Translations under genes and position numbers: made by a program | Part shown: in pieces, positions 3,966-30,524 of the stretch | How the letters are laid out: each line of letters begins with the position of its first letter | Numbering within the stretch: the first letter of the stretch is position 1 | Virus record (IMG/VR): IMGVR_UViG_3300013372_003978 | Location: 23,688-87,687 of that record | From: a virus | Direction: 5' to 3' (one strand) | DNA length: 64,000 bases | The notes under the pieces: model-generated | Database searches by the model: none | What the model saw: only the letters and a program-made list of their open reading frames with translations | Told to the model about the DNA's origin: nothing

Positions 3966-6950
3966 TTAACCTAATGTAATTGTTTTTGTAATCCCATTAA
4001 TTCTTATTTTTAATCCAGTATCTGTATTTGATTCTAACCAAATATCACCATCATTTGGTGCACTTGGTGCTGGACCAACCTCAAGTTTCATAATAGCACT
4101 TGCAGTTGTTGATGCAGCAATATGTAAATTTGCTGTTGGATTAACTACATTTATACCAATTCTACCATTTGTTTGTGCTGACATAATTGGATTACCTAAT
4201 ATTGTTCCATATGTATTTTTTCCAAATAAAACACCGCCAATATTTAGACTATTTGTTGTTCCAGATGGTAATGTTATATTTGTACCAATAATAATATTAT
4301 TTGAACCTAAATTATTAGTACCAAATGTTTTACCAGCACAATAACCAAAGAAATTTGAATAAGATGCATTTGATGCTAGATAACCAGCATTAGTACCAAT
4401 AAAATTTGAATCATTTGCGTATGTTGCATAAGGACCAGCACCCTGACCCATAAAATTTGAACGACTAGCACCTGGTGCACTTTGACCAGCATATGAACCT
4501 ATGAAATTTGAATTTGTTGCACCTGTTGCACTATAACCAGCCCAATAACCAAAGAAATTTGAACGAATAGCATTTATCGCACCATTACCAGCATTACCAC
4601 CAAAGAAATTTGAATTATCAGCATTAGTTGCACCATAACCAGCACTACCACCAACAAAAAATGAACTATTAGCATAAGTTGCATTTTGACCAGCCAGAGA
4701 ACCTAAGAAATTTGAATAACTAGCGTTTGTTGCACTTTCACCAGCTTGATAACCAACAAAAAATGAACCTCTGGCATTTGTCGCATTTCTACCAGCCCAC
4801 ATACCAATGAAATTTGCCTCATAAGCGGCACTTGCATATTGACCAGTTTCGTAACCAATGAAATTTGCACGATAAGCATTAGTTGCACCATAACCAGCAT
4901 TATAACCCAAGAAATTTGATTGACCAGCAGATGTTGCACCATAACCAGCATTCCAACCTAAGAAATTTGATTGACCAGCACTTGATGCACCATAACCAGC
5001 TTGATATCCAAAGAAATTTGAATTAGAAGAGAATTTTGCACCATAACCAGCATTCCAACCAAAGAAATTTGAATAACTAGCAATTGTTGCACCAGAACCA
5101 GCTTGAACACCAAAGAAATTTGAATTACTTGCACCTGTTGCTAAATAACCAGTTCCAGATAATCCAGTTGAAAATAGACTACTAGTATTTACAATTGTTA
5201 TTGGTGATGTTGAACCGTTACTTCCAGTAGATGCTGATATAGTAACTACATTACCACTTGCATCAACACCAATAGGTTGACCTGCACTTGTTGTAGCTGA
5301 ACTAGTAAGTCTTTCTAACCTTAATCCTGATGTATCTGGTGCTTCACTATATATATGAAGTGTATTTGTTGGATTAACAACATTAATACCAATCTTACCT
5401 GTTGTCTGTGCTACGATGCTTGGGTCACCTCCTGTCGTACCATAAGTACCCGTTCCAAATAAAACACCACCTAAATTAATTGAATTTGTTGTACCTGAAG
5501 GTAAACTAATATTTGTTCCAATAATTATATTATTTGAACCTAGGCTACCTAATATTTCGCCATCACCAACACTATAACCAATAAGTGTTGAATAACTAGC
5601 ACCTGTTGCTAGATAACCAACATTATAACCCATAAAATTTGAATATGGTGCATTTGATGCACCATTACCAGCACCAACACCAAAGAAATTTGAAAAACTT
5701 GCATTTTTTGCATTATAACCAGCACTATAACCAAAAAAGTTAGAAAAACCAGCACCTGATGCTTGAAAACCAGCAGAATCACCAAAGAAATTTGAACGAT
5801 AAGCGTTTCTTGCACTTTGACCAGCTCTATTACCCATAAAATTTGATTGATTTGCATTATATGCACCATTACCAGCACCCCAACCTAAAAAATTTGAATA
5901 ACTAGCACCTGTTGCGGCATCACCAGCATAATATCCAATAAAATTTGAATATGGTGCATTAGTTGCTTGATAACCAGCCCTAGCACCAATGAAATTTGAA
6001 TTACTAGCACCTGATGCTTCATAACCAGCATTCAATCCTAAGAAATTTGAATAATAAGCGTTTGTTGCACTACCACCAGCACCACCACCTAGGAAATTTG
6101 ATTGATTAGCACCTGATGCTTGGTAACCAGCACCTTGACCAATGAAATTTGATTGATATGCATTTGTTGCTTGAGAACCAGCTTCTCCACCAAAGAAATT
6201 TGAATAAAAAGCACCTGTTGCGAGCAAACCAGCTCCATTACCTAAGAAATTTGATTGAGAAGCACCTATTGCACCATTACCAGCATTCAATCCTAAGAAA
6301 TTTGAATTATTAGCACCACTTGCTTGATAACCAGCATTTTGACCAAAGAAATTTGATTGATATGCATTAGTTGCACCATAACCAGCTTGCTCACCAAAGA
6401 AATTTGAATTATAACTATTTGTTGCGTTTCTACCAGCACTAGGGCCAAAGAAATTTGAACCACTGGCATTTAGAGCATTTTCACCAGCTTGTGTGCTAAA
6501 GAAATTTGATTGGCTAGCGTTTGTTGCACCATTACCAGCTGTATTACCAAAGAAGTTTGAATTAGTAGCACTTGATGCTTGCCTACCAGCTTGATTACCT
6601 AAGAAATTTGAACCACTGGCATTAGGTGCATTATAACCAGCTTGAAGACCAACAACAAACATATCATTAGATAAAGCCTCAGCACCATCACCAATTGCTA
6701 TAGAACTAGTCCCTGATGCGATAGGTAATATTGTAGGTGGTGTGTCATTTTCAGCATACCATGCAGGGCCATCATAAAAACCAGTTACATTAAACGTAGC
6801 CCCTGTATTGTTTGTAAAAGTAGTTGTACCAGCAGTATATGTAGCACCAGTAACAAAAGTATTTTCATAATACCTTTGTGATATTTTTAAATTACTATCT
6901 AATGATGGATACCCACCAGCTTTATCTTTATTTAACTTACTTTCAAACAT
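3966..6950 (-). CDS. Tail fibre/adhesin with two arrays of 14-aa SNF(F/L/I)GxxAGxxAxxA repeats
   Basis: 994 aa, Gly/Ala/Asn/Ser-rich beta-roll repeats like trimeric adhesin heads; each array is followed by a module ending in IGINVVNPT. Confidence 0.8.
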   Translation of the reverse strand: MFESKLNKDKAGGYPSLDSNLKISQRYYENTFVTGATYTAGTTTFTNNTGATFNVTGFYDGPAWYAENDTPPTILPIASGTSSIAIGDGAEALSNDMFVVGLQAGYNAPNASGSNFLGNQAGRQASSATNSNFFGNTAGNGATNASQSNFFSTQAGENALNASGSNFFGPSAGRNATNSYNSNFFGEQAGYGATNAYQSNFFGQNAGYQASGANNSNFLGLNAGNGAIGASQSNFLGNGAGLLATGAFYSNFFGGEAGSQATNAYQSNFIGQGAGYQASGANQSNFLGGGAGGSATNAYYSNFLGLNAGYEASGASNSNFIGARAGYQATNAPYSNFIGYYAGDAATGASYSNFLGWGAGNGAYNANQSNFMGNRAGQSARNAYRSNFFGDSAGFQASGAGFSNFFGYSAGYNAKNASFSNFFGVGAGNGASNAPYSNFMGYNVGYLATGASYSTLIGYSVGDGEILGSLGSNNIIIGTNISLPSGTTNSINLGGVLFGTGTYGTTGGDPSIVAQTTGKIGINVVNPTNTLHIYSEAPDTSGLRLERLTSSATTSAGQPIGVDASGNVVTISASTGSNGSTSPITIVNTSSLFSTGLSGTGYLATGASNSNFFGVQAGSGATIASYSNFFGWNAGYGAKFSSNSNFFGYQAGYGASSAGQSNFLGWNAGYGATSAGQSNFLGYNAGYGATNAYRANFIGYETGQYASAAYEANFIGMWAGRNATNARGSFFVGYQAGESATNASYSNFLGSLAGQNATYANSSFFVGGSAGYGATNADNSNFFGGNAGNGAINAIRSNFFGYWAGYSATGATNSNFIGSYAGQSAPGASRSNFMGQGAGPYATYANDSNFIGTNAGYLASNASYSNFFGYCAGKTFGTNNLGSNNIIIGTNITLPSGTTNSLNIGGVLFGKNTYGTILGNPIMSAQTNGRIGINVVNPTANLHIAASTTASAIMKLEVGPAPSAPNDGDIWLESNTDTGLKIRINGITKTITLG
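4330..6660 (-). repeat. 42-bp-period coding tandem repeats (two arrays, ~4330-5140 and ~5560-6660)
   Basis: aagaaatttga and accagc recur every ~42 nt. Confidence 0.9.
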
Positions 6951-6952
6951 AT

Positions 6953-7195
6953 TTATTTATTTTTTAATAAAGCTATTAACTCATTTTCTTCTTCTTTAGA
7001 TATTGGTTTACTTTTTTGTAAGTTAACAATTTCTTTTAATTGTTCTGGGAAAAAAACACCATTTAATGCTTCTTTAGCAGTTTCACATTCTCTGTATGTC
7101 ATTTCAAATGCTTCTTTTATATCATCAACCCAAGTTTCAGTTTCTACTGATTTAAGATATTTGTTGTCTGTTGTTCTTTTTATATATTTTACCAT
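6953..7195 (-). CDS. Hypothetical protein (possible fibre assembly chaperone)
   Basis: 80-aa ORF tightly packed between fibre genes. Confidence 0.5.
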   Translation of the reverse strand: MVKYIKRTTDNKYLKSVETETWVDDIKEAFEMTYRECETAKEALNGVFFPEQLKEIVNLQKSKPISKEEENELIALLKNK

Positions 7196-7212
7196 TGTTT
7201 TTTCTTTTAAAT

Positions 7213-8190
7213 TTAATCGTTAAAAACTTCAAATGTTAATGTGTTATTAGGTGCAAATTGATTTTTTATATTGGTTGGCATTGTCAATATTATACCATTT
7301 TCAATGCTTCCATTTACTGAATACGTACCTAAAAAATTAGTACCTATATCACTATTCAATTTTGCAACCAATTCTATCATTGTACTAACTTCAGTATATG
7401 TTTCATTGTAGAATGTCTGAATTAAATCACCACCAACATATAAACTTACTGATGCATTCCCATAAGGAAGACCTGAAACATTTAATCCGTATACTAGTAT
7501 TGGTGTTGTGTCAAAATCTCTTTTGATACTAATTTCAACTGGTGTGTAGTATAGTCCATTATCAGCCAAATCACCACCAGATAACACATCAATAAAAACA
7601 GCACTATCTTTAGTATCAAAACTACTAATACCAGGGATTGGAATTGGAAAATTAAAAGGGTCACCACCACCATCAAAGGGGTATTTAATTTGAGAACTTA
7701 TTTTTGTTCTACTTCTTGGAAATTGATTAATAATAGGTCCTAATGAAGAATTAACACCAATATAATATCCAAACCCACCAAAAGGTGCTTGTTGCCAATA
7801 AATATCAAACCCTAAGTCATTTTCTAGCACATCGACAATCAATTCACCCAAAGAGGATAATTCAGAAGCGTTATCCCAAATTGTAGGTGTTTCCCCTGTT
7901 GCGACAAACACACACCCAGTTTCATTAATAACCCCACTTTGCACGTTAGCAATGTTACTAAAGTCATCACCACTCTGAAATGTTGTTATTGCATAGGTTT
8001 CACCTATAATTAAACCATAATTAAAATAACTCAAACTAGTTCCAGTAATAGAACCTGTTTGTGTTAATAATGCACTATATTTTGCAAAATTATTTGTTGA
8101 TGTACCTGTAACAACCAAACTACCTTGAATTGTTAAATTACCATTTATTGTTTGTCCTGATACGTTGTTTACTATGTATTTTGTTCCCAT
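7213..8190 (-). CDS. Putative virion structural/fibre-associated protein
   Basis: 325 aa; N-terminal INGNLTIQGSLVVTG fibre-type beta repeat; Gly/Ser/Thr-rich. Confidence 0.55.
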   Translation of the reverse strand: MGTKYIVNNVSGQTINGNLTIQGSLVVTGTSTNNFAKYSALLTQTGSITGTSLSYFNYGLIIGETYAITTFQSGDDFSNIANVQSGVINETGCVFVATGETPTIWDNASELSSLGELIVDVLENDLGFDIYWQQAPFGGFGYYIGVNSSLGPIINQFPRSRTKISSQIKYPFDGGGDPFNFPIPIPGISSFDTKDSAVFIDVLSGGDLADNGLYYTPVEISIKRDFDTTPILVYGLNVSGLPYGNASVSLYVGGDLIQTFYNETYTEVSTMIELVAKLNSDIGTNFLGTYSVNGSIENGIILTMPTNIKNQFAPNNTLTFEVFND

Positions 8191-8192
8191 AT

Positions 8193-8822
8193 TTATTTTT
8201 GAAAATGTCTTTCAATTCTTTTACTTAATCTAACCCTAGGGTCTGTTATTTTTCTATTAACCTCTTCATATGTCAACACAAAACCAAAACTTAAAAAAAT
8301 TCTTCTAGAATTAAATTCGTTGGTCCAATGTTTGTACAATGAAGCTTCAAAACAATATAAATCGGTTTCTTCTATGTTAACCACTTCGTCACCGACATAA
8401 AAATCATAATCCTCAGATAAAATGCTTATATTGCATTTATAATTAACATAACCATCAATCGATGCATCATAATGTGGATTTATCTTTCCACCTTTGTTCA
8501 TATCAACCGCTTGGAGAAAAACATTTTCTTTTGGTATATTTAACTCATTTGAGATTCTATCTATAATTACATGGATAAAATCTGGCAACGGTTCGTTTGA
8601 TACATCAGATATTGACTGAAACTTAGTTATATAATTTGTCAACTCTGTATTTGATATATTGAAAATACATGATTTACCTTTTAGTGTTTTGGATAACTCT
8701 GATAAATGATAATTGCTATCATCACCAGTATGGTTAACAGAATCTATCCATTTAACTATTTGGTTTGCCTCATCTTTTGTGATGAAGTTTTTTTTAATTT
8801 TATATGTTTTCGAATCTACCAT
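8193..8822 (-). CDS. 2OG-Fe(II) oxygenase superfamily protein
   Basis: HxD (INPHYDAS), distal His (YKHW) and Arg (SRRIFLSFGF). The start is probably the ATG at 8822 (MVDSK) rather than 8882. Confidence 0.75.
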   Translation of the reverse strand: MVDSKTYKIKKNFITKDEANQIVKWIDSVNHTGDDSNYHLSELSKTLKGKSCIFNISNTELTNYITKFQSISDVSNEPLPDFIHVIIDRISNELNIPKENVFLQAVDMNKGGKINPHYDASIDGYVNYKCNISILSEDYDFYVGDEVVNIEETDLYCFEASLYKHWTNEFNSRRIFLSFGFVLTYEEVNRKITDPRVRLSKRIERHFQK

Positions 8823-9069
8823 ATTTCCCAACCTTTTTAAGGTTATGTTTTTCCAAAAATTCTTTTGGACCCATAGCTTCAATAATTGTTAATTCTGCTG
8901 AATCCATAAGTTGTTTTGCTTTTTCATCAGTAACCGACATAACACATAATTTATGTGTTGCTGGCAACTCTCCAGTTGGTGATAAATCTATTTTTAAAAT
9001 ATTATCATTTTTCATTTTTTCTCTTGCTTGAAGAACTTTACCTTCTTCACATAATATACAGATTCTCAT
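8800..9069 (-). CDS. Hypothetical protein
   Basis: 89-aa ORF with an A-rich leader, in the operon. Confidence 0.6.
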   Translation of the reverse strand: MRICILCEEGKVLQAREKMKNDNILKIDLSPTGELPATHKLCVMSVTDEKAKQLMDSAELTIIEAMGPKEFLEKHNLKKVGKYGRFENI

Positions 9070-9079
9070 ATTTTTGTTA

Positions 9080-12046
9080 TTATTGATTAATATTTGTTAT
9101 TGTTAATATATCGTTTTCATCATAGAAAGATAATCTTTTATCACCACCTTGTCTTTCAAAAATTTGACATGTGTATTGTTCATATACTGATGGGTTAAGT
9201 CCAACACCAGTTACTAATATTACAATATTATCATCAGGGATAGCACCACCAATAGAAGTACCTAATATTGTTATTGTATCACCAGTTACGTATAGTTTAC
9301 CAGCATCGTTTATAGTAACTCCAGTTACAGTACCACCTGAAACATCAATATTGAAAGTTCCATTAATACCTAAAGCGTTAGTTGTACCACCAATATCTGT
9401 ATATAGGTTATCAGTTGCACCAGTTCCAATTGAAGTGTATGTAAATCCTGTTATGTTTCCGTAGTTTGGTGTAAAATCAGTAGTATTAATATTTGTGTTA
9501 ACAACATTCCATTGGAAGTAATCACCTATTGTGTTGTTATAGAAATTATCAGGTATAGAATTATTATAAAAGTATTCACCTACTGTGTTTTCAGAAAAAT
9601 TATTTCCTATTTTGTTACCTTGTGAATCACCATACCCAACACCAAAACCATCACCAGTAATATTATTATTAAACGAGCTCCCAATTTCATTATTCTGAAA
9701 ATCATTAGCTATAGTGTTAGAATTAATATTTACTCCAAAAGTGTTATTGTAAAAGTTTAACCCTATATTATTGTTATAAAACTCACCCATCCATCTATTA
9801 TTACCAACATCACCTAAAAAGTCATTTGATAATGTATAACTGCCAATTTCATTGGTATAAACACTACCTGAAAATTGATTATCAACAACATAAGACTTAA
9901 CATTATTCAACGAAAAATAGTTAAATATTAAATTACCTTTAAAATCGTTACCTATTATATTATCTTCAAAATCACTACCGTTGTTATTTTCTATGTAGAT
10001 TGAATTCCATTCTGTCCCATAAGGTGACACATCTTCGTCCCAACTATTCTCTTCGGCAGTATTATAAATACCACCATTATTACCTCTTCTAATTTCAAGA
10101 CTACCTTCAACAATAACATCTATTTCTGAACCATAGTTTGTTTTTGTAAAATAAACGGTTGCTTCAGAAGTTGGATAAACTTTTGTTCTTTCGTATGAAA
10201 AACCACCACCATTATTGTTTTGTGTCCATTGAGTAAATATAACTTTATGATATTCATCATTAACTGTATCGTGCATTATAAGCTCTTTCCCTAGAATAAT
10301 GTTTGAATAGTTATTATCTAACGAATTATTAAAAGTGTCATAGGTTCTACCAGTTAAATTTTCAATATTGGTATTATCCCAATTAAAATAATCAGTGTTA
10401 CCTAAAGTATTGTTTTCAAAAAAGTTACCTATTTGGTTGTTTTTAAAATTATATGAAATATTATTATTATCTTCAAAATATTCACCAATTTGGTTATCTT
10501 GGAAATAATCACCAATCACATCATTGTGGTTAAAACCATTACCAATATGGTTACCGTAAAAATTATGACCTATGTTTTGGTTGTTGTTAAATCCATTACC
10601 TATAACGTTTTTATAAAAATCACCATTAAGTATGTTATTATTAAATTGGTTACCAATTTGGTTATTTTGAAAATCTTGTTTAATAATATTTTCATAAAAA
10701 TCATTTCCAATTCTATTTCTATAGAATTCAAAATTATCTAAATTACCAAAATCACCTATGGAATTATTATTAAAATCATTACCAATATTGTTATCATAAA
10801 AACCAGAATATATTGTATTATTATAAAAATCATTACCAATTTTATTATTACCAAAATCAGTACTGTTTTCAGTTAATAATCTATTGCTATGAAAATTGTT
10901 TCCAATTTGGTTATTATCCAAATTAAGATTTATAAGGTTTCCATAAAAATAATGACCAATAATACACGTATCAATATCATTTGTTGATACATTTTCGTAA
11001 CAATAATCACCCCATGTGTTGTTTTGATTATCAGTACCAAAAGTGTTATTGTAACAATAATCACCAAATTTATTGCTTTCATACTCACCTTCTAAAAACA
11101 CATTATTGGCTAATATAAAAGGTCCTGCTATATTTAGATAATTATTTGCAAAATTTCCTACATAATTGTTTTTAGCATAGTTTTCCCCTATTGCATGACC
11201 AAATGTTGTATACTCAATAAAATCATTTGTTTTAACATTTGTTCTTTTATAACTGAAATAGTACTCACCACCATCGTTATTTTCACTAACAGCTAAATAA
11301 AATGCCGAACCAAGCCCAGTTGAACCTATTGTGTCACCAGAAACTGTCATAATTGTGTTACCAGATATACTAACTATTTCATAATAATTAGGAAAAGCGT
11401 TAGGTATGTAAATAACATTACCAACGGTTAACGCTGTAAAAGATGTATTTACACCATTAACAATACCGTCATTTCCTAATTCTACAGTACCATTTAAACG
11501 TAGACCTTCTCTATGTGTATACAAACGATATCTTTTAAATAAAATTGTTCTATGGTCGTAATCTGTTCTATTATTGAATTCATCAATTCTTTCTGTTATC
11601 CTACCATAAGCTACTGAATTAGTAACTTCAGTCGCACTAAAAGTCCAATCATACTGAATCTTATCGTTAGGATACAATGGTTGATAAGCATTTATAGAAA
11701 TTGTCGATATGCTAGTGGCAAAAACTATAATAGGTTCAACATTCCCTTGCTTAGTATTACCAGTAGTTATTGGATTATTTTCGATATCAAAATCTGGTTG
11801 GTCATAACATGTTTTAAAATCAGTTATCATATAAAAACTACCAGTACTTAAACCGCTAGTACTTATAGTACTCACTAAACCTGTGTATGTTAAATTTGTT
11901 ATGTCACCACCACCACCATGGATTTGACCGTTTTCATCTTTTGCTTTGATGTTAAAATCACTTAAATCAATAAATAGATTTGACCCACCAGCTACTGGTG
12001 TTGGGACTTGTGATGCGTTTTGACCTTGAAATTGAATATATTGCAT
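9080..12046 (-). CDS. Tail fibre/spike-like protein with Asn-rich NxIGNxF beta-helix repeats
   Basis: 988 aa with many NQIGNxFxxN repeats; C-terminal FNIDVSGGTVTGVTINDAGKLYVTGDTITI motif typical of phage structural proteins. Confidence 0.7.
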   Translation of the reverse strand: MQYIQFQGQNASQVPTPVAGGSNLFIDLSDFNIKAKDENGQIHGGGGDITNLTYTGLVSTISTSGLSTGSFYMITDFKTCYDQPDFDIENNPITTGNTKQGNVEPIIVFATSISTISINAYQPLYPNDKIQYDWTFSATEVTNSVAYGRITERIDEFNNRTDYDHRTILFKRYRLYTHREGLRLNGTVELGNDGIVNGVNTSFTALTVGNVIYIPNAFPNYYEIVSISGNTIMTVSGDTIGSTGLGSAFYLAVSENNDGGEYYFSYKRTNVKTNDFIEYTTFGHAIGENYAKNNYVGNFANNYLNIAGPFILANNVFLEGEYESNKFGDYCYNNTFGTDNQNNTWGDYCYENVSTNDIDTCIIGHYFYGNLINLNLDNNQIGNNFHSNRLLTENSTDFGNNKIGNDFYNNTIYSGFYDNNIGNDFNNNSIGDFGNLDNFEFYRNRIGNDFYENIIKQDFQNNQIGNQFNNNILNGDFYKNVIGNGFNNNQNIGHNFYGNHIGNGFNHNDVIGDYFQDNQIGEYFEDNNNISYNFKNNQIGNFFENNTLGNTDYFNWDNTNIENLTGRTYDTFNNSLDNNYSNIILGKELIMHDTVNDEYHKVIFTQWTQNNNGGGFSYERTKVYPTSEATVYFTKTNYGSEIDVIVEGSLEIRRGNNGGIYNTAEENSWDEDVSPYGTEWNSIYIENNNGSDFEDNIIGNDFKGNLIFNYFSLNNVKSYVVDNQFSGSVYTNEIGSYTLSNDFLGDVGNNRWMGEFYNNNIGLNFYNNTFGVNINSNTIANDFQNNEIGSSFNNNITGDGFGVGYGDSQGNKIGNNFSENTVGEYFYNNSIPDNFYNNTIGDYFQWNVVNTNINTTDFTPNYGNITGFTYTSIGTGATDNLYTDIGGTTNALGINGTFNIDVSGGTVTGVTINDAGKLYVTGDTITILGTSIGGAIPDDNIVILVTGVGLNPSVYEQYTCQIFERQGGDKRLSFYDENDILTITNINQ

Positions 12047-12050
12047 AGTT

Positions 12051-12674
12051 TTAAATTATAATACCTGTACCTGTTATTGTTGAGTTTCCATTAAATATTA
12101 CTGCACCAGCAACATTAATTAAACCATCATTTGTTATGTTGCTATCTTTTAGTAATAAATTACCACCGATAAATATTTGTGAAAATTTGTTAAATGTTAA
12201 ATCACCTATTGTTATAGGTGTACCTGTTTGTAATACTAAATCAGTATCTACTAAAACATAATCACCTGAAATTAAAATAGTTTCATCACTTTTTAAAATC
12301 TTATTTTGATTTTCTTCCCAATGTTTTACGTTAGTTGTAAAACCACTAACTTCAATTGAATTACCGTATGAATTAATAAGAGTAGCAATACCAGTATTGT
12401 TATTGTATGTACCACCAGTTAATCCTGGGTTAGTTGTATAACCACTAATTTCGATTGAATTACCATCTGAATTATTAAGTGTGGTAATACCAGTATTGTT
12501 ATCGTATGTACCACCAGTTAATGATGGGTTAGTAGTATCAATATATGGGGTAATAAAATCAGTTAAACCACTTAACGTCATTTGTTTTGTTTCTCCACTA
12601 TTTACAATAGGAAATACATCACTTAGTGATGGATTATTATTGTATTCAAATGCGGTTATCTTTTTATTAGACAT
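12051..12674 (-). CDS. Fibre-associated structural protein with internal 32-aa duplication
   Basis: N-terminal KKITAF...DVFPIV...ETKQMTL fibre-type motif; LTGGTYxNNTGIxTLxNSxGNSIExSGxTTN occurs twice. Confidence 0.65.
   Translation of the reverse strand: MSNKKITAFEYNNNPSLSDVFPIVNSGETKQMTLSGLTDFITPYIDTTNPSLTGGTYDNNTGITTLNNSDGNSIEISGYTTNPGLTGGTYNNNTGIATLINSYGNSIEVSGFTTNVKHWEENQNKILKSDETILISGDYVLVDTDLVLQTGTPITIGDLTFNKFSQIFIGGNLLLKDSNITNDGLINVAGAVIFNGNSTITGTGIII
12340..12536. repeat. 96-bp tandem duplication (2 diverged copies) within CDS
   Basis: aataccagtattgttat and tatgtaccaccagttaat each occur twice, 96 nt apart. Confidence 0.85.
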
Positions 12675-12690
12675 GGTTAGATTTGTTTAT

Positions 12691-12698
12691 AATAAATA
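12691..12698 (-). promoter_or_regulatory. Putative late promoter TATTTATT
   Basis: Sense-strand AAATAACATATTTATT 16 nt before the ATG at 12674; the same motif recurs upstream of many structural genes. Confidence 0.6.
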
Positions 12699-12745
12699 TG
12701 TTATTTAATAATAAAATTACTTTAAATATGATTAATTTTAAAATA

Positions 12746-14611
12746 TTACCAATTTATTCCGTAACCATCTTGTTGTAATATAAAATATGTGTTTTCTTGT
12801 AGTATTAAATTATCATCTATAAACCCATATTTATTAGCTTCAGCCGCATAAGCATTTTGAATTTGACATAAAGACATATCACAAATATTAAATTTAAATT
12901 GTGATATACCACCGATAAAACTACCAGCAAAATTTGTTTCGATTGGTAATCCTCTATCTGATAAATCCAAACCTCCAAATGTTTGACTTTCTATCAACCC
13001 TTGACTACCACCACCTAAACTAAAATTAAATGGAACACCAACTTGTTTAGCTTTATATTCATCAAGTCTTTTACCAATAAACTCTGGGAAATTATATACA
13101 GTAAATTTTAACATACCATTAATATAAAACTTAAGTTTGCCGTTTCTAGGTTTTGCTAATTTTAAATCACATTCTGATTTATTATCTGCAACATATTTAA
13201 TCACTATATTATACCAATATCTAGGGTCAATTAAATTAGGTATTGAATAAGCTTCATGAACTGTAGCCCCAGTTATGTATTTTCTATCAGCACCATTCGT
13301 TATACACGTACCTGTAACTGTTAATAATCTATATCCAATACTACCATCGGGTTTAATTCTAAAACCTAATGCGTTATCAATTATATCAATATTATAATCA
13401 ATACTAGTTTCAGGTGTATTGCGGCCACTAAATGAATAAACGGTTTCATTACCTAAATTATCACCAACACTACCACAAAATGTGGTATTACCACTTGAGG
13501 CTCTACCATAAATTAAAAATGGATTTTGTTCATTGGTTAATTTTTTTCTAACATTAGCAACTGGAATACCACCACCATTATAAGTATATACTGTTTGAGC
13601 ACCTAATCCATCAAGACTATTACCACAACCATTATATACATTATAAACATTTGGTGTTGAACCACTAGTATATATAAGATTAGAATTAATACCACTTAAA
13701 GGACTTGGTGAAGCATCATATGCTCTACCATATATTAAGAATTCATTCGTGATTAAATCAATATCAGTTCTTGGTGGGTCTAACGAAATACCAAGACCAT
13801 AATCACCAGCAATGATAATTTCATCTTCTTTTGGTATTGTACACCATTCACTTACAGTTTCACCACTAGTACAACCACTTGTGTTACAATCAATGGTACA
13901 ACCAGTATCAGAACCTTCCCATTTATTCCAAAATTTATTTTCAGCACGAGTACCCATATAAAAGAAAAAACCACTATTATTTGGGTGCGTATCATTAAGT
14001 ATTGTATCACCTGCTGTTGCAAATTGTTTTGTAGTTAACCAAAATTCAGCTACCCACGCATGATTAACTCTAGTTGGTAAAATTTGATAATTTGAACCAT
14101 CAATTTTATAATATCCTTGATAAAAACCACCATAAAGGCTAAGAAAATTTTGAATTAAAGGTGTTGTTATGTCTAGAATAATTTCATGTGGGTATACATA
14201 ATTACCTGTTGTACCTGTTACCATGTGCATATAAAATCTATTATCATTAGCTGGTATAGTCAATGTAGAACCTGTCAATGCCGACAATAAATCTAAATTT
14301 AATTTATCGTCAGGGTCTTTATCAAAAGTTATTAAACCATTGTCAATACCTGTTAAACCAATAGTGTCAAAAGTATAACCAGTATTTACCGAACCATTCC
14401 AAGTTACAAGGCTATAAATATTATTTGACTCATTATTATTATATATGTTTGAATTATTAAAATCGTACCATACAACAAAACAATCACCTGAAGATAATGG
14501 CCCACAATAAGGTGCAGGACCTTCATCGTTAGCTAAATAAAAATCCCAATAATCACTGTTTGATAATTTTAGGTTTAGTTTATTAAAGTTAAAATTTTTA
14601 ATATTTCCCAT
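12746..14611 (-). CDS. Structural protein with LamG/ConA-like C-terminal region
   Basis: 621 aa; WYNIVIKY...LKFYINGMLK...FIGGISQFKF pattern; internal repeat FLIYGRA...LGxxTVY; C-terminal LILQENTYFILQQDG. Confidence 0.55.
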   Translation of the reverse strand: MGNIKNFNFNKLNLKLSNSDYWDFYLANDEGPAPYCGPLSSGDCFVVWYDFNNSNIYNNNESNNIYSLVTWNGSVNTGYTFDTIGLTGIDNGLITFDKDPDDKLNLDLLSALTGSTLTIPANDNRFYMHMVTGTTGNYVYPHEIILDITTPLIQNFLSLYGGFYQGYYKIDGSNYQILPTRVNHAWVAEFWLTTKQFATAGDTILNDTHPNNSGFFFYMGTRAENKFWNKWEGSDTGCTIDCNTSGCTSGETVSEWCTIPKEDEIIIAGDYGLGISLDPPRTDIDLITNEFLIYGRAYDASPSPLSGINSNLIYTSGSTPNVYNVYNGCGNSLDGLGAQTVYTYNGGGIPVANVRKKLTNEQNPFLIYGRASSGNTTFCGSVGDNLGNETVYSFSGRNTPETSIDYNIDIIDNALGFRIKPDGSIGYRLLTVTGTCITNGADRKYITGATVHEAYSIPNLIDPRYWYNIVIKYVADNKSECDLKLAKPRNGKLKFYINGMLKFTVYNFPEFIGKRLDEYKAKQVGVPFNFSLGGGSQGLIESQTFGGLDLSDRGLPIETNFAGSFIGGISQFKFNICDMSLCQIQNAYAAEANKYGFIDDNLILQENTYFILQQDGYGINW

Positions 14612-14613
14612 AG

Positions 14614-17364
14614 TTAAAAGCTTTCTAAATTAGTACGTTTCCATCCTGTACTACTTTTAATATATAAATAGTCATCATCTCTAGTAACGTTACCTAAATT
14701 TCCATTGATATCTGTTGAACCGCTTGGAGTGTAATTAGGCATTGTAATTTTATTTGGTATAAAATCATTATTTGTTGTCCAATTTCCATTCTCATCAGTA
14801 ATTAACTCCGCACCTAAATCAAGACCCATTGCGTGTAATACAGTAATACCACCACCCAAAGCAGTTGTTATATTTCCATTATGATTTAAATCAATATTGT
14901 TATCTTCAGCTAATATTGTTTGTGTTTGTAAATTTCCAACTAAAGTTGTACCACTAGTTAATTCTTTTATTGCTTCTACTAATAAAGCAACAGTGTTTTC
15001 ATAATGAACACCCATATATTTTTCTGGTGAATTATTATTAACAAACGTTAATTCAGGGACAATACTTTCAACTTCTTGAGCAATAAACCCAATTCTAGTA
15101 GGACCATCTCCATCAATCCAATCATAACTTACACCTCTAAGTTGTTTAACTTTATCTAAAGCATTTGTTAGCGTTTCAATATTATGTTTTAATCTAATAT
15201 CAGAAGTATTTGTTGTTAAAACACCACTAGAAGTATAATATAAAGCACCAGCTGATGTTGCAGCACCAATTGTTCTAATCCTTGCGTTTCCAGATACATC
15301 CAATGATTCTGTAGGTGTAACCACATTAATACCAATTTTACCTGTTGTTTGTGCAGATATACTTGGATTACCTACTATTGTTGAATATGTATTTATTCCA
15401 AATAATACTCCACCTATATTCATTGAATCTGTTGTTCCAGCAGATAACGATATATTTGTTCCTATTATTATATTATTTGAACCAAGGCTACCTAATACAG
15501 TAGCATTACCAACATTATATCCAAATAAATTTGAATTACTTGCATTTGTTGCTTGATAACCAGCATAATATCCAAATAAATTTGACCTACTTGCACCTGT
15601 TGCTTGATAACCAGCTCTAAGACCCAAGAAATTTGAATTAAATGCGTCTGTTGCATAAGCACCAGCATTACCACCAAAGAAATTTGAATATTGTGCGTTT
15701 TTCCCATCTTGACCAGCACCAGAACCTATGAAATTTGAATTAGAACTACCTGTTGCGTTCCAACCAGCATAAGAACCCAAAAAATTTGAATTAAAAGCGT
15801 TATTCGCTCCATTACCAGCCCAATAACCCATGAAATTTGAAGCACTAGCATTTATTGCATCTTGACCAGCATTTTGACCTAAGAAATTTGAACCTTGGGC
15901 ATCCGTTGCACCGTAACCAGCATTTTGACCTAAAAAATTTGAACGTTGGGCATTTGTTGCTTGATAACCAGCACTATTTCCAAAGAAATTTGAGTTGTTT
16001 GAACCAGATGCTTGATAACCAGCATTAACCCCAAATAAATTTGAATATGTTAATCCAGTCGCATCTTGACCACTCCCAATTAATCCAGTTGAAAATAAAC
16101 TATTTGTATTTATAATAGTTATAGGTGAACTAGAACCTATTATTACCCTTCCACTTGAATCGAAACCTAAATTGTTTATGCTAGTTCCACTTACAAGTGT
16201 TTTAATATTTAATTGGTCAACGTATGTTGTGTCTGCAACCAAACCAGTTATATTTGCACCTAAAACAATTGTATTACTACCACCAGCAACTGAATAATAA
16301 CCATGAACAAATGAAGTAGTTCCAGATGCTGTACTATTATTACCACCAGCATGTGAACTAGTATTCATAGCTCTTGTACTTAAACCTTCAGCATGAGAAT
16401 AATCACCACCTGCTATTGTTTCAAATCCTTCAGCATGCGATGTACTACCACTTGCAATACTATAACCTTCAGCATGACTAATACCACCACTTGCAATTGA
16501 ATCAGCACCTTCAGCGTGACTATATAAACCACTAGATATTGTTTGATAACCTTCAGCATGTGAAAAACCACCAGAAGCTAATGTACGAATACCTTCAGCA
16601 TGGTCACCATTTGTTGTTGCTGATGTAGCATTACCTTCAGCATGTGAATAATCACCAATTGCGTAAGTACCAGAACCCTCAGCCACAGAAAAACTACCAC
16701 TAGCAACACTAGTACCTCCATTTAATGTTGCCGAATTAGGTCCAGTACTAAATACCCAAACAGGTGTTCCGCTCCAACCACCTTTACCTTCAGAATCAAC
16801 ACATACCCATGAATTTCCAATTATTGGATTATTTGTAATTATAAGGTCTTGTGTTCTAGTTATACCAGAAACATCATTCCATATTGTTCTACCAGTAAAA
16901 TCTAGAGTTGAAGCTGATAAAAAATCAAGTATTTCAGTTTGAACATTCCCAACATAATTTCCACCACCTAAATCAATAAAGCTAAGAGGTGTTATATCAA
17001 AAGAAACCCCACTATATGCTGACGCAACAATATTACCATCAACTGTTATATAAGATGATGGTACAAAAGCTAAAGCATTTTGTGTAATTCCAGAATTTGA
17101 TGGTGTAATAGCTGATAAACTATTAATTGCAATATTCATATCTGGATTATACCACGAATAAACAGTTGTTGCTGAATTACCTGAAAATGTACTTAATACT
17201 GTTGATGAACTATATGTAATACCTGTAGTCACTAAATTAGGACCTGTTGGTAATGAGCTAAATGGCACACCAAATGAGGTACCACCAGATAAAACAGTAA
17301 ATGTTTCTATGCGTTGTTTAACTTGTCTGTTACTTGAAAAGTCTAATTTTGTTCTAAATGCCAT
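14614..17364 (-). CDS. Trimeric tail fibre: YadA-like HAEG repeats, SNFxG repeats and peptidase S74 intramolecular chaperone
   Basis: SHAEG repeats; 14-aa repeats; TSDIRLKHNI...LRGVSYDW...GFIAQEVE chaperone signature. Confidence 0.85.
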   Translation of the reverse strand: MAFRTKLDFSSNRQVKQRIETFTVLSGGTSFGVPFSSLPTGPNLVTTGITYSSSTVLSTFSGNSATTVYSWYNPDMNIAINSLSAITPSNSGITQNALAFVPSSYITVDGNIVASAYSGVSFDITPLSFIDLGGGNYVGNVQTEILDFLSASTLDFTGRTIWNDVSGITRTQDLIITNNPIIGNSWVCVDSEGKGGWSGTPVWVFSTGPNSATLNGGTSVASGSFSVAEGSGTYAIGDYSHAEGNATSATTNGDHAEGIRTLASGGFSHAEGYQTISSGLYSHAEGADSIASGGISHAEGYSIASGSTSHAEGFETIAGGDYSHAEGLSTRAMNTSSHAGGNNSTASGTTSFVHGYYSVAGGSNTIVLGANITGLVADTTYVDQLNIKTLVSGTSINNLGFDSSGRVIIGSSSPITIINTNSLFSTGLIGSGQDATGLTYSNLFGVNAGYQASGSNNSNFFGNSAGYQATNAQRSNFLGQNAGYGATDAQGSNFLGQNAGQDAINASASNFMGYWAGNGANNAFNSNFLGSYAGWNATGSSNSNFIGSGAGQDGKNAQYSNFFGGNAGAYATDAFNSNFLGLRAGYQATGASRSNLFGYYAGYQATNASNSNLFGYNVGNATVLGSLGSNNIIIGTNISLSAGTTDSMNIGGVLFGINTYSTIVGNPSISAQTTGKIGINVVTPTESLDVSGNARIRTIGAATSAGALYYTSSGVLTTNTSDIRLKHNIETLTNALDKVKQLRGVSYDWIDGDGPTRIGFIAQEVESIVPELTFVNNNSPEKYMGVHYENTVALLVEAIKELTSGTTLVGNLQTQTILAEDNNIDLNHNGNITTALGGGITVLHAMGLDLGAELITDENGNWTTNNDFIPNKITMPNYTPSGSTDINGNLGNVTRDDDYLYIKSSTGWKRTNLESF

Positions 17365-20223: not shown

Positions 20224-21459
20224 ATGAAAAACAAAAAAATTAAAATCTTAGTTGTACCATCAGACCGTACAGGTGTTAGTTACTTCCGTTCAACAAACCC
20301 ACACATCGCATTAGAAAATAATTACCCTGATGAATTTCACATTGACGTGGATTATGAGCCAGATTTGAATAATGATGAATGGTTAAAACAATATGACATT
20401 ATCCACTACCATAGAAGTCTTGGTGGTTTTGAACAAATGGCAATTTTAAATGAAAAACTTAAAAATTTAGGTATTGTTTCATTTATGGATTTAGATGATT
20501 ATTGGGCAGTTGGTGAACATCATCCAGCTTATCATTTAGTAAAAAATCATGAACTAGATAAAAAAATATTAGAAAATATTAAGAGTGCTGAAAATGTTAT
20601 TACAACAACAAAAATATTTGCAAATGAAATTGCTAAATATAATAAAAATGTGTTTATTTTAGCTAATGCTGTTGACCCTACTGAAAAACAATTTACACCA
20701 AAATTAGAAGCTTCAGATAGACTTAGAATTGGTTGGTTAGGTGGTAGTAGTCACTTGAAAGATTTAGAAATTCTTAATGGTGTTGTAGGTCGTTTAAGAA
20801 CTGATAAATTATTAGATAAAGTTCAATTTGTTTTATGTGGTTTTGATACAAGAGGGACACATACTGTTATTGATTCTGTTACTAGAGAACAAACTACTAG
20901 ACCAATTACACCAAAAGAAAGTGTTTGGTTCCAATATGAAAAAATATTCACTGATAACTATCAAACAGTAAGCCCTGAATATAAAGATTACTTAATGAAA
21001 TTTACACAAGATGAATATAATGACCTCGCTAATGAACCATATCGTAGAGTTTGGACAAAGCCAATTTCAACCTACGCTTCAAATTATAATTTGTTTGATG
21101 TGTCATTGGCCCCAATTGAAGAACATATCTTTAATAAAGTTAAGAGTCAATTAAAAGTAATTGAAGCTGGTTTTCATCACAAAGCTATTATCGCACAAGA
21201 TTTTGGTCCATATCAAATTGACCTTAAAAATGCAATTCAATTTGGTGGTGGTTTTGATATGTCAGCAAATAGTATATTGATTGATAGTGTTAAGAACCAT
21301 AAAGATTGGTATAGTGCAATTAAAAAAGTAATTCAAAATCCTGATTTAGTTACAGCATTACAAGAAAATCTATATAATACGGTTAAAGATACCTATTCAA
21401 TGGATAAAGTAACTGAAGAAAGACGAGAACTATATTTATCATTATTAAATAAAAAATAA
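20224..21459 (+). CDS. Glycosyltransferase, GT-B fold (GT4-like)
   Basis: MDLDDYW, RIGWLGGSSH, DVSLAP...FNKVKSQLKVIEAG. Confidence 0.8.
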   Translation: MKNKKIKILVVPSDRTGVSYFRSTNPHIALENNYPDEFHIDVDYEPDLNNDEWLKQYDIIHYHRSLGGFEQMAILNEKLKNLGIVSFMDLDDYWAVGEHHPAYHLVKNHELDKKILENIKSAENVITTTKIFANEIAKYNKNVFILANAVDPTEKQFTPKLEASDRLRIGWLGGSSHLKDLEILNGVVGRLRTDKLLDKVQFVLCGFDTRGTHTVIDSVTREQTTRPITPKESVWFQYEKIFTDNYQTVSPEYKDYLMKFTQDEYNDLANEPYRRVWTKPISTYASNYNLFDVSLAPIEEHIFNKVKSQLKVIEAGFHHKAIIAQDFGPYQIDLKNAIQFGGGFDMSANSILIDSVKNHKDWYSAIKKVIQNPDLVTALQENLYNTVKDTYSMDKVTEERRELYLSLLNKK

Positions 21460-25334: not shown

Positions 25335-26287
25335 TGAAAAAAATTAAAGATTGGTTACTTAAAAAAAGTGGGTCAGTTATGTTGTCGTTAACCAACGTTG
25401 AAAAGAACGCTTTGGGTCAATCAGGTGAATTTATGTCCAGTGATATTCAACATACACAAAAATATACCCAAGGTCAAGTAGCCGATTCTTTAATAAATGG
25501 GGAAATTACTAATGAGGTAATGGACTTAAGATGGAGAATGTATAAAATTTTACAAGAAACTGATAGTTTAACAACTCAAATTATTGGTTATGAACCAGAT
25601 GGTACCCCAATCACTAAAACTAGTAAAAAAGATGTTAAAAAAAGTCTTAAAAAAGTAAAAGTTGATTCATTTGATGATTATAAATTAGAATTTGTTGTTA
25701 CTAACGATGAGATTATCACATCTGGCAATGATATGATGAATAATCAATATATTGAAATGTTAGATAAACCAACAATAAATTTAGATGATGAAGGAAATAT
25801 TGTTAGTGCAACACATGGTGAGATTAGTGGTGACGAATACTATTTTACTAATAAAACTGAAAAATCAATAGTAATTAATAGTGAATTTACTCGTAGATTC
25901 TTTTTGGAAAATTTTACTAAAAAATTAAATATTAGACATATATCTGATAATGAAAAATTACTTGAATTTTATGTTAGTATTTATCCAGATGTTAATAATA
26001 GAACTAGCAGGCTTTTCCTAAGTGAATTAAATAAAATTATCAATGAAGGTAAAAAATCAGACATTACAAATATTGATGAAGTAGAATTTATAACTTATAA
26101 AGCTATTGGTGTTGACGATTTTTTAGAATATAAATATAAAATAACATCTTTTGATAAAATAATAGCTTTTAATGGTTCTTACGTAATTAAATTCTTATCT
26201 AAGGTAGTAATTAATGGTAAAAACATAACTAGTAAATATATTCAAAATGAATTAGAAGAAAAATATAAAAACAAAGAAAAAAAATGA
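25334..26287 (+). CDS. Hypothetical protein
   Basis: 317 aa; translationally coupled at both ends. Confidence 0.7.
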   Translation: MKKIKDWLLKKSGSVMLSLTNVEKNALGQSGEFMSSDIQHTQKYTQGQVADSLINGEITNEVMDLRWRMYKILQETDSLTTQIIGYEPDGTPITKTSKKDVKKSLKKVKVDSFDDYKLEFVVTNDEIITSGNDMMNNQYIEMLDKPTINLDDEGNIVSATHGEISGDEYYFTNKTEKSIVINSEFTRRFFLENFTKKLNIRHISDNEKLLEFYVSIYPDVNNRTSRLFLSELNKIINEGKKSDITNIDEVEFITYKAIGVDDFLEYKYKITSFDKIIAFNGSYVIKFLSKVVINGKNITSKYIQNELEEKYKNKEKK

Positions 26288-30523: not shown

Positions 30524-30524
30524 A

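What the first reader, a model, noticed from the sequence alone, without database searches (positions are those of the whole stretch)
3966..17364. Recurrent (S/T)-G-x-(T/S) motif across unrelated structural proteins: candidate glycosylation sequon
Seen: 12051-12674 has SGET, SGLT, TGGT (twice), TGIT, SGYT and SGFT in 207 aa. 12746-14611 has TGYT, TGST, TGTT, TGCT, SGCT, SGET, SGST, SGNT and TGAT. 14614-17364 has SGGT, TGIT, SGNS, SGIT (twice), SGVS, TGRT, SGST and SGTT. 9080-12046 has TGNT, SGNT, SGDT, TGRT, TGFT, TGAT, SGGT, TGVT and TGDT. 7213-8190 has SGQT, TGTS and TGET, and 51420-52811 has TGGT, TGIS and TGNT. An S-A-x-T variant (SAIT, SAST, SATT, SALT) also recurs. The motif looks rare in the enzymes of the window. 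It differs from the Bacteroidota host O-glycosylation sequon D-(S/T)-(A/I/L/V/M/T). Inference: it is the acceptor signal for the neighbouring phage transferases.
Basis: partly seen in the sequence, partly recalled or inferred. Interest (0 to 1): 0.85.

Follow-up and report, generated by a model that had tools for sequence, protein, structure and literature searches.

The report
Candidate sugar-attachment motif on phage fibres
The tail-fibre proteins of this giant phage carry far too many copies of a four-residue motif (Ser/Thr-Gly-x-Thr), and the motif is absent from related phages that lack one particular sugar-transferring enzyme, so it is a good but unproven candidate for the site where the phage attaches sugars to its own particle.

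Summary
[ST]-G-x-[ST], more exactly [ST]-G-x-T, is 4 to 12 times over-represented in the fibre-block proteins at 9080-17364. The excess survives local shuffles.

It is not a general fibre property. 29 fibre-like proteins of 8 unrelated phages give O/E 1.45. A phi92-like phage and jumbo phage XacN1 give about 1.0 in their S/T-rich long proteins.

The fold does not need it. The family of the 12746-14611 protein averages O/E 10.7 over 150 representatives, but 21 of the 150 have no copy.

The motif-free members form one clade. None of its 10 contigs tested holds a homologue of window gene 20224-21459, a divergent GT-B glycosyltransferase; three of the 10 are complete genomes. Motif-bearing genomes do hold it. 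A distant 735-kb megaphage holds it too, and unrelated proteins there are enriched.

In the motif-free clade, conserved sites keep the Gly but lose the first Ser/Thr.

Best reading, about 0.5: an O-glycosylation acceptor motif. The large sugar cassette at 26284-43190 is not tied to the motif.

Limits: only one loss event, no structure mapping, no mass spectrometry. The scan's earlier notes cover this same genome only.

The parts
12746..14611 (-). 621-aa virion protein with no Pfam, PHROG or PDB relative. It has 9 [ST]-G-x-T sites and is the reference member of the family used for the comparative tests.
   Evidence: 9 observed v 0.74 expected. 25 of 25 full-length IMG/VR homologues are enriched. 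150 representatives give 876 v 82.2, with 21 at zero. No family or PDB match.
12051..12674 (-). 207-aa fibre-block protein with 7 sites. Several of them lie in an internal duplication of about 34 aa.
   Evidence: 7 v 1.16, z 5.6. The duplication is visible.
9080..12046 (-). 988-aa fibre-block protein with 10 [ST]G.[ST] sites, 9 of them [ST]G.T. They cluster near the N-terminus and in the C-terminal 125 aa.
   Evidence: 10 v 2.25. Local shuffles still give z 4.3-4.5.
14614..17364 (-). 916-aa tail fibre with an S74 intramolecular-chaperone domain. It has 15 [ST]G.[ST] sites, 10 of them [ST]G.T.
   Evidence: Peptidase_S74 at E 1.2e-18 and tail-fibre PHROGs. 15 v 6.3. [ST]G.T 10 v 2.9.
3966..6950 (-). 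994-aa Gly/Ser-rich repeat fibre, only weakly enriched. Most of its hits sit at one position of its long repeat.
   Evidence: 12 v 6.35, p 0.02. [ST]G.T 6 v 2.55. The repeat is shared with other fibres.
7213..8190 (-). 325-aa fibre-block protein with a marginal excess.
   Evidence: 4 v 1.28, p 0.04.
51420..52811 (+). 463-aa protein near the capsid genes with a marginal excess. Its orthologue is enriched in G001 and has no copy in the motif-free genome.
   Evidence: 3 v 0.81. Orthologues: G001 4/0.72, G011 1/0.21, G007 0/0.20.
20224..21459 (+). 411-aa divergent GT-B (GT4-like) glycosyltransferase. Its presence across genomes tracks the motif, which makes it the candidate modifying enzyme.
   Evidence: Of 20 family members scanned at E<=1, 18 match PF13439 (best 1.7e-6, below Pfam's cut-off) and 8 match PF13692 or PF00534. 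PDB 5i45 at E 0.012. Nearest Atlas clusters are virus-only glycosyltransferases. Phyletic pattern.
26284..43190 (+). Variable sugar-synthesis and transferase cassette (GT2s, GT61, kinase, methyltransferase, aldolase, nucleotidyltransferase, GDP-mannose dehydratase, epimerase). It is not tied to the motif.
   Evidence: Pfam assignments. No homologue of any of its genes in G001, G011 or G007, although G001 and G011 are enriched.
55144..56985 (-). Gp23-type major capsid protein, carrying no [ST]G.T. It serves as the internal negative among virion proteins.
   Evidence: PF07068 match over the cut-off. One SGFS and no [ST]G.T.

Best explanation
[ST]-G-x-T is the acceptor motif of a phage-encoded protein O-glycosylation system.

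Proposed mechanism (inferred throughout): the divergent GT-B transferase encoded at 20224-21459 puts a sugar on the hydroxyl of the first residue, where Ser and Thr are interchangeable. It does so in exposed beta-turns of tail-fibre, tail-sheath-insertion and a few other virion proteins, in the host cytoplasm. The Gly supplies the turn. The Thr three residues later is a recognition or positioning residue. Other transferases, including the variable cassette, may extend the sugar.

Shown: the statistical excess; its restriction to a phage lineage; that the fold does not need it; its co-variation with the transferase gene.

Inferred: that the motif is modified at all; that this enzyme does it; which residue is the acceptor; what the sugar is.
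For: 1. Specific excess. Pooled over 8 fibre proteins of the record, X-G-x-T gives S 47/10.8 and T 64/12.2, but D 2/4.4, N 10/12.0 and A 6/8.1. At the last place T is 111/23.1, S 30/21.2, V 6/10.2. At the second place G is 111/23.1, A 41/13.6 and the other residues about 1, except P at 12/5.1.

2. Not a general fibre trait.
- 29 fibre-like proteins of 8 unrelated phages: 67/46.2. There the last place prefers I, L and V.
- phi92-like PD06: 31/22.2 overall, 7/7.0 in S/T-rich long proteins.
- XacN1: 70/69.0 and 32/34.2.

3. Not needed by the fold. Of 150 family representatives, 21 have no copy yet keep the family's conserved anchors.

4. Genome-level contrast.
- G007, motif-free clade, complete with terminal repeats: 55/46.2, no protein enriched.
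- G011: 153/63.8. G001: 150/65.1. G000: 121/34.6.
- Over 65 orthologue pairs: G001 34/13.0, G011 28/10.1, G007 11/11.3.

5. Co-variation with the transferase.
- A homologue lies in the flank of 0 of 22 loci whose homologue has 0-1 sites, and of 36 of 58 loci with 2 or more.
- Absent from 10 of 10 contigs of the motif-free clade, 3 of them 100% complete. A profile search with positive controls in the same call confirmed this for the three complete ones.
- Present elsewhere in 7 of 10 motif-bearing contigs whose flank lacked it. The 3 misses are 30-41% complete.
- Of 62 window proteins, it is the only one with a full-length match in G001 and G011 and none in G007; 57035-58318 shows the same pattern, but its matches cover only about a third of the protein.

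6. Site-level pattern.
- Window residue 132 is [ST]G[NS]T in 97% of clade A and 91% of clade B, with TGNT 13 and SGNT 13 in B. In clade Z it is NGNN, YGNN or DGNN.
- Two other sites conserved in clade B read TGYT (94%) and TGFT/TGYT (69%). In Z they become GGYT/NGYT/DGYT and DGYT/DGFT.
- So the Gly, and often the last Thr, stay while the first hydroxyl residue goes.

7. Prediction met. The 735-kb megaphage LR756501 has a homologue of the transferase (35% identity over 97%) and no member of the 12746 family. Its proteins have no BLAST match to the window's fibres apart from one 57-aa hit. They are enriched at 17/1.22, 25/3.73, 12/0.93, 15/1.86, 7/0.42 and 8/0.71.
Against: - The motif-free sequences form one clade. 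The contrast is therefore one evolutionary event, not many, and anything else lost on that branch would correlate equally well.
- Genome-wide, 9 of 369 G001 genes share the same phyletic pattern. The other eight are thioredoxin, a CCA/polyA polymerase, HNH, RmlD, DUF4326, an RNA ligase, an S24 peptidase and a phosphoesterase.
- Of the roughly 24 window genes with homologues in G001 and G011, four look like transferases. That the single exception is one of them has odds of about 1 in 6 by chance.
- The transferase sits beside dUTPase and a GMP-reductase-like gene. It could act on DNA instead.
- About a third of the hits in the record lie in a recurring short module and in internal repeats, which inflates the counts.
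- Non-virion proteins are not depleted in the motif: G001 61/46.9. A cytoplasmic enzyme reading only four residues would also hit them and the host's proteins, so extra context would be needed.
- Hydrophobic residues flank the motif on both sides, as in an ordinary beta-hairpin.
- There is no structure mapping and no chemical evidence.
Confidence: 0.5

Rival explanations
1. The motif is purely structural. It is a lineage-specific way of building beta-turns or hairpins in fibre and decoration domains, spread by duplication and module exchange among fibre genes, with no modification. The motif-free clade simply uses another turn chemistry (Asp, Asn or Gly at the first place).
For: - Hydrophobic residues sit at -1 (V 26, I 10, L 10, A 10, F 8 of 115) and at +4 (Y 18, I 16, F 16, V 10).
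- G and N interchange at the second place, as in SGDT against ANDx.
- Partial forms such as SGAI and DGAV occur.
- Short modules recur and there are internal repeats.
- Control fibres show a weak [ST]-G-x-hydrophobic tendency.
Against: - Asp and Asn, the usual equivalents of Ser/Thr in such turns, are not enriched at the first place: D 2/4.4, N 10/12.0.
- The same fold does without the motif in 21 of 150 family representatives.
- The excess also appears in proteins with no detectable homology to one another, and in a distant megaphage.
- Segments with no BLAST match to another fibre are the more enriched: 95/17.2 against 18/6.4 for the shared repeats.
Confidence: 0.25
2. The motif is read by some other lineage-specific factor, or carries another modification. 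Examples: a fibre-assembly chaperone, a kinase or another Ser/Thr-modifying enzyme. The glycosyltransferase at 20224-21459 then modifies DNA or another glycan, and tracks the motif by shared ancestry alone.
For: - The gene lies next to nucleotide-metabolism genes: dUTPase and a GMP-reductase-like gene.
- Only one loss event supports the link.
- Eight other genes share its phyletic pattern.
- Phage GT-B enzymes that glycosylate DNA are well known. This is recalled, and is also stated in passages of PMC12619734.
Against: - None of the other eight co-varying genes encodes an enzyme expected to act on Ser/Thr hydroxyls of proteins.
- No kinase was seen among the window's proteins in Pfam.
- The free interchange of Ser and Thr at the first place fits an acceptor hydroxyl.
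Confidence: 0.15
3. The motif is a composition or counting artefact. S/T/G-rich low-complexity stretches and repeats inflate the counts.
For: - 3966-6950 and parts of 14614-17364 are Gly/Ser-rich repeats.
- One top-scoring megaphage protein is a collagen-like G-P-T repeat, 58/9.55.
Against: - The excess survives shuffles within 12-residue blocks.
- [ST]G and G.[ST] alone are not enriched.
- S/T-rich fibres of control phages are not enriched. HTVC008M proteins with 26-30% S+T give O/E 0.9-1.7.
- 12746-14611 has ordinary composition (14% S+T) and 9 sites against 0.74 expected.
Confidence: 0.03

Closest known systems
Virion O-glycosylation of mycobacteriophages by phage-encoded glycosyltransferases (Freeman et al. 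2023). I know it only from the citing passage in PMC12619734; the paper itself is not held.
   Same: A tailed phage would use its own transferases to put glycans on its own structural proteins inside the host cell.
   Different: According to that passage, the glycans there sit at the C-termini of the capsid and tail-tube subunits. Here the capsid protein has no site. The candidate sites are internal four-residue turns in fibres and in the tail-sheath insertion. No modification has been shown here.
Chlorovirus PBCV-1 capsid glycosylation by virus-encoded enzymes, and glycoproteins reported in jumbo phage XacN1 (passages of PMC5852040). The XacN1 evidence is in a supplementary figure I could not see.
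   Same: A large virus carries its own sugar machinery and decorates its virion proteins without the host's secretory pathway.
   Different: XacN1 has no homologue of 20224-21459 and no [ST]-G-x-T excess: 70/69.0. If it glycosylates its virion, it uses another signal.
Bacteroidota general O-glycosylation sequon D-(S/T)-(A/I/L/V/M/T).
   Same: A short Ser/Thr-containing sequon in the likely host phylum.
   Different: That system acts outside the cytoplasm. Its sequon is not enriched in the window's fibres: 12 observed, 11.8 expected.
Transferases that read a short motif in a folded beta-structure or a Ser/Thr-Gly site: protein O-fucosyltransferases, EOGT, proteoglycan xylosyltransferase (Ser-Gly), EarP. 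All recalled; none tested here.
   Same: An acceptor hydroxyl followed by Gly or another small residue in an exposed turn, read by a soluble transferase. This is how the proposed mechanism would work.
   Different: There is no sequence relationship to any of them. 20224-21459 is a virus-only, divergent GT4-like family. The resemblance is functional analogy only.

Membership tests
Protein O-glycosylation sequon (acceptor motif of a protein glycosyltransferase) | A short motif with a hydroxyl residue is over-represented in the target proteins beyond composition. | tested here: met
   O/E 4-12 in four window proteins, robust to local shuffles. 111/23.1 pooled over 8 fibre proteins.
Protein O-glycosylation sequon (acceptor motif of a protein glycosyltransferase) | The motif is present only where the cognate transferase is present. 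| tested here: inconclusive
   There was no exception among the genomes examined. But the absences are one clade, so one loss event, and 8 other genes share the pattern.
Protein O-glycosylation sequon (acceptor motif of a protein glycosyltransferase) | The sites are surface-exposed. | not testable with these tools
The only hint is indirect: Asp/Asn/Gly-Gly at the same positions in the motif-free clade, as expected for turns.
Protein O-glycosylation sequon (acceptor motif of a protein glycosyltransferase) | A glycan is chemically detected on the motif residue. | not testable with these tools
   This needs mass spectrometry of virions or of co-expressed protein.
Bacteroidota general O-glycosylation sequon D-(S/T)-(A/I/L/V/M/T) | That sequon is enriched in the candidate glycoproteins. 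| tested here: not met
   12 observed, 11.8 expected in the six fibre-block proteins at 3966-17364.
Generic structural turn motif of phage fibres | A comparable excess in fibres of unrelated phages. | tested here: not met
   67/46.2 over 29 proteins of 8 phages, none with P<0.01. PD06 7/7.0. XacN1 32/34.2.
Generic structural turn motif of phage fibres | The fold requires it, so all homologues keep it. | tested here: not met
   21 of 150 family representatives have no copy. Conserved sites in the motif-free clade read NGNN, GGYT or DGYT.
GT-B fold, GT4-like glycosyltransferase (for 20224-21459) | Matches to the N-terminal (PF13439) and C-terminal (PF00534/PF13692) domain models. | tested here: inconclusive
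   Scanned at E<=1: 18 of 20 family members match PF13439 (best 1.7e-6) and 8 of 20 match each C-terminal model. The window's own protein scores 19.2 bits against a cut-off of 28.5. PDB 5i45 at E 0.012. Catalytic residues were not examined.
Mycobacteriophage-type virion glycosylation | Glycans on C-terminal extensions of the capsid and tail-tube subunits. | tested here: not met
   The capsid protein 55144-56985 has no [ST]G.T. The sites here are internal and lie in fibres and the sheath insertion. The tail tube was not identified.

The most novel reading that the evidence does not exclude
[ST]-G-x-T is the sequon of a virus-only family of GT-B protein O-glycosyltransferases. Through it, a broad group of jumbo and mega phages, including the 735-kb LR756501, coat their fibres, sheath decorations and other exposed virion proteins with sugars made in the host cytoplasm. 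When one clade lost the enzyme, the sequons decayed at the acceptor residue while the turns stayed. This would be a defined, sequence-readable virion glycosylation code in uncultured giant phages.
Probability: 0.45. Interest if true: 0.9.

Novelty: new variant of a known kind. Interest (0 to 1): 0.78.

Why it matters
Glycosylation of phage particles is known from very few cases, and no sequence signal for it has been defined.

If this motif is a sequon, three things follow:
- Glycosylated virion proteins, and the sites on them, could be read straight from metagenomic sequence across a large group of giant phages.
- A specific enzyme (20224-21459) and small substrates (for example the 207-aa protein at 12051-12674) could be tested by co-expression in E. 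coli, without the uncultured phage.
- It would give a natural example of sequons decaying after loss of the enzyme.

Sugar coats on fibres would bear on host recognition, resistance to proteases and shielding of the particle.

I found no description of this motif in the held literature. The four searches were made, read as listings, plus passages of two papers.

Tried and rejected
- Composition artefact: rejected by local shuffles and by the lack of any excess of [ST]G or G.[ST] alone.
- General fibre property: rejected by the control fibres and three control genomes.
- Avoidance of the motif in non-virion proteins: my first look suggested depletion ('rest' 19/39.6). That set had been picked after removing the 30 best-scoring proteins, so it was biased. 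With a fixed set the figures are G001 61/46.9 and G000 6/10.4. I make no claim of depletion.
- Masking shared sequence with a loose BLAST (no composition correction) masked nearly everything and was uninformative. The strict version is.
- Link to the large sugar cassette 26284-43190, to the GT2_5+GT4 fusion 23685-25334, or to the transferase-like genes 45102 and 46254: not supported. The cassette and the fusion are absent from the enriched genome G011, and the cassette from G001 as well. 45102 and 46254 are present in the motif-free G007.
- Host sequon D[ST][AILVMT]: not enriched.
- Looking for relatives without transferases among the 28 close IMG/VR relatives: all that had enough flank were syntenic and carried the gene, so there was no contrast.
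- PDB relatives of the 12746 family and of 9080-12046: none.
- No DNA or protein match of the fibre block in the isolated-phage collection.
- A second, independent family contrast in the megaphage lineage: only one relative was found, so I dropped it.
- Single motif-free proteins as queries for loci found nothing. An alignment of 16 of the 21 worked.
- 'Moraphages' (PMC12619734; passages) are large aquatic Bacteroidota phages with four core transferase families and genomes of 200-307 kb. I did not test whether this clade belongs to them.


Full report
**What the window is.** The window is the last 64 kb of an 87.7-kb IMG/VR virus record that CheckV rates 26% complete. Its GC content is about 0.29. 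Close relatives are 360-370 kb, so it is a fragment of a jumbo phage. The capsid protein is of the T4 Gp23 type.

The minus-strand block 3966-17364 holds fibre-like proteins. Only 14614-17364 has a known domain, the S74 intramolecular chaperone of tail fibres. The plus strand from 20224 onward holds nucleotide-metabolism genes and many sugar and transferase genes.

**The observation.** Against 2000 whole-protein shuffles, [ST]G.[ST] gives:
- 12051-12674: 7 v 1.16.
- 12746-14611: 9 v 1.39.
- 9080-12046: 10 v 2.25.
- 14614-17364: 15 v 6.3.
- 3966-6950, 7213-8190 and 51420-52811: only marginal.

Shuffling within blocks of 12-40 residues leaves the excess. The two halves of the motif are not enriched on their own. 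The last residue is Thr, not Ser.

Pooled over 8 fibre proteins of the whole record:
- First place: Ser 47/10.8 and Thr 64/12.2, but not Asp (2/4.4) or Asn (10/12.0).
- Second place: Gly 111/23.1, then Ala 41/13.6.
- Last place: Thr 111/23.1 against Ser 30/21.2 and Val 6/10.2.

Across the whole record the excess is confined to the fibre block. Upstream of the window a 2471-aa fibre has 40/8.4, a 1203-aa protein 19/4.0 and a 490-aa protein 11/2.3. The remaining proteins fit their composition and are not depleted.

**How independent the proteins are.** The repeat-rich fibres share long homologous stretches. A short module carrying two to four copies of the motif recurs about ten times in five proteins. 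I estimate by eye that about a third of the 115 hits come from such modules.

Segments with no strict BLAST match to another fibre are nevertheless the more enriched: 95/17.2 against 18/6.4. 12746-14611 has no paralogue at all.

**Is it what fibres always look like?** No.
- 29 fibre-like proteins from T4, Margaery, Vibrio phage 6E35-1b, Spc35, Cassandra, pEa_SNUABM_44, HTVC008M and S-CAM7 give 67/46.2. None reaches P<0.01, and after [ST]-G-x they prefer Ile, Leu or Val rather than Thr. Some of these were chosen by annotation and some as large neighbours of the S74 protein.
- phi92-like phage PD06 gives 31/22.2 overall and 7/7.0 in its S/T-rich long proteins.
- XacN1 gives 70/69.0 and 32/34.2.

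**The family of 12746-14611.**
- 25 of 25 full-length IMG/VR homologues are enriched, with 4-16 sites against about 1 expected.
- Five sites are nearly invariant and many others come and go.
- A profile search of 1.84 billion representatives found 720 relatives.
- The best 150 carry 876 sites against 82.2 expected, but 21 of them carry none.
- Those 21 keep the family's conserved anchors. At the motif positions they have Asn, Asp or Lys, then Gly, then other residues.

So the fold does not need the motif.

**The contrast.** An alignment of 16 of the 21 motif-free proteins pulled 80 loci out of IMG/VR.
- 22 loci have a homologue with 0-1 sites. None has a homologue of window gene 20224-21459 in its 10-kb flanks.
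- Of the 58 loci with two or more sites, 36 have one.
- Large S/T-rich neighbours follow the same split: 29/34.3 against 653/175.1.

Whole-contig searches:
- The gene is absent from 10 of 10 contigs of the motif-free clade, three of them 100% complete. A profile search confirmed this for the three complete genomes, with G001 and G011 as positives in the same call.
- It is present elsewhere in 7 of 10 motif-bearing contigs whose flanks lacked it. The three misses are 30-41% complete.

Genome-wide [ST]G.T counts:
- G007 (complete, motif-free clade): 55/46.2, with no enriched protein.
- G011: 153/63.8.
- G001: 150/65.1.

Over 65 orthologue pairs the totals are 34/13.0 in G001, 28/10.1 in G011 and 11/11.3 in G007. 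The differences lie in the 12746 family, the tail sheath and the orthologue of 51420-52811. In G001 all 8 sheath sites lie outside the conserved sheath core.

**Which gene.**
- Of 62 window proteins, 20224-21459 is the only one with a full-length match in G001 and G011 and none in G007; 57035-58318 shows the same pattern on partial matches covering about a third of the protein.
- The cassette 26284-43190 is absent from all three.
- The GT2_5+GT4 fusion is absent from G011.
- The transferase-like genes 45102 and 46254 are present in all three, G007 included.
- Of 369 G001 genes, 9 are present in G011 and the megaphage and absent from G007. The other eight are thioredoxin, a CCA/polyA polymerase, HNH, RmlD, DUF4326, an RNA ligase, an S24 peptidase and a phosphoesterase.
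- 20224-21459 is a divergent GT-B enzyme: 18 of 20 members match PF13439 and 8 match PF13692 or PF00534, scanned at E<=1. PDB 5i45 matches at E 0.012. The nearest Atlas clusters are all viral glycosyltransferases.

**Site-level pattern.** The site at window residue 132 is [ST]G[NS]T in 97% of the window's clade and 91% of the second motif-bearing clade, with Ser and Thr equally common at the first place. In the motif-free clade it reads NGNN, YGNN or DGNN.

Two further sites conserved in the second clade (TGYT, TGFT) become GGYT/NGYT/DGYT and DGYT/DGFT. The turn stays and the first hydroxyl residue goes. This is my reason for proposing the first residue as the acceptor.

**A prediction that held.** The isolated-phage collection holds a full-length homologue of the transferase (35% identity) in the 735-kb uncultured megaphage LR756501. 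That phage has no member of the 12746 family.

Its large proteins share no BLAST similarity with the window's fibres beyond one 57-aa hit. They are enriched at 17/1.22, 25/3.73, 12/0.93, 15/1.86, 7/0.42, 8/0.71 and 10/1.39. One further top scorer is a collagen-like G-P-T repeat and should be set aside.

**Limits.**
- The motif-free sequences form one well-supported clade nested among motif-bearing ones on a FastTree with midpoint root. The core contrast is therefore a single loss, and relatedness alone could link it to any gene lost on the same branch.
- The transferase sits next to nucleotide-metabolism genes and could serve DNA modification.
- A four-residue signal in the cytoplasm would need extra context, since ordinary proteins carry it at chance frequency.
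I could not test site exposure, and context came only from IMG/VR.
- Nothing shows a sugar on any residue.

**Verdict.** The motif behaves like a lineage-specific functional overlay centred on a Ser/Thr hydroxyl, and it tracks one phage glycosyltransferase. It does not track the big neighbouring cassette.

My odds:
- About 0.5 that it is an O-glycosylation acceptor motif.
- About 0.25 that it is purely structural.
- About 0.15 that another factor or modification reads it.

In the held literature I found no description of it (searches, read as listings; passages of PMC12619734 and PMC5852040).

Noticed in passing
window 26284-43190: The whole inner sugar cassette has no homologue in the close relative G001 (61-88% identical in the flanking genes), nor in G011 or G007. 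The cassette holds GT2s, GT61, a PRK-like kinase, a methyltransferase, an aldolase, a nucleotidyltransferase, GDP-mannose dehydratase and an epimerase. It looks like a swappable insert between conserved genes.
   Followed up: partly
window 17381-17412 and 20146-20222: The divergent intergenic region between the fibre block and the plus-strand genes carries TATAAATA on the plus strand at 17381. Its reverse complement lies near 17405, like two back-to-back T4-type late promoters. Upstream of 20224 there is a hairpin plus T-run like a terminator, then TATAAAT about 15 nt before the ATG.
   Followed up: partly
L195:11944-15495 (LR756501 391944-395495, minus strand): A 1183-aa collagen-like protein with long G-P-T/G-P-Q triplet runs sits in the 735-kb megaphage. 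It gives 58 [ST]G.T hits for a trivial reason. One 57-aa stretch of it matches the 1203-aa protein upstream of the window.
   Followed up: no
G001 272893-273747 (L044:12893-13744): An RmlD-type dTDP-4-dehydrorhamnose reductase shares the phyletic pattern of the candidate transferase: present in G011 and the megaphage, absent from the motif-free G007. The window instead carries a GDP-mannose dehydratase and epimerase pair. Both routes lead to 6-deoxyhexoses.
   Followed up: no
window 12746-14611, residues 233-257: A Cys-rich stretch with TGCT and SGCT units occurs only in the window's own clade of the family. It is replaced by long acidic, Tyr-rich insertions in other clades.
   Followed up: no
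G007 whole genome (L138-L154): The motif-free relative has only 4 long proteins with at least 16% Ser+Thr, against 12-16 in the motif-bearing genomes. Its GC content is also higher (0.39 against 0.30-0.34). Its fibres are less Ser/Thr-rich as a whole.
   Followed up: no
G001 144678-147512 (L038:4678-7509): The tail sheath is 944 aa. The PHROG sheath match covers only residues 646-942. The N-terminal two-thirds is an unassigned extension that holds all 8 motif sites.
   Followed up: partly
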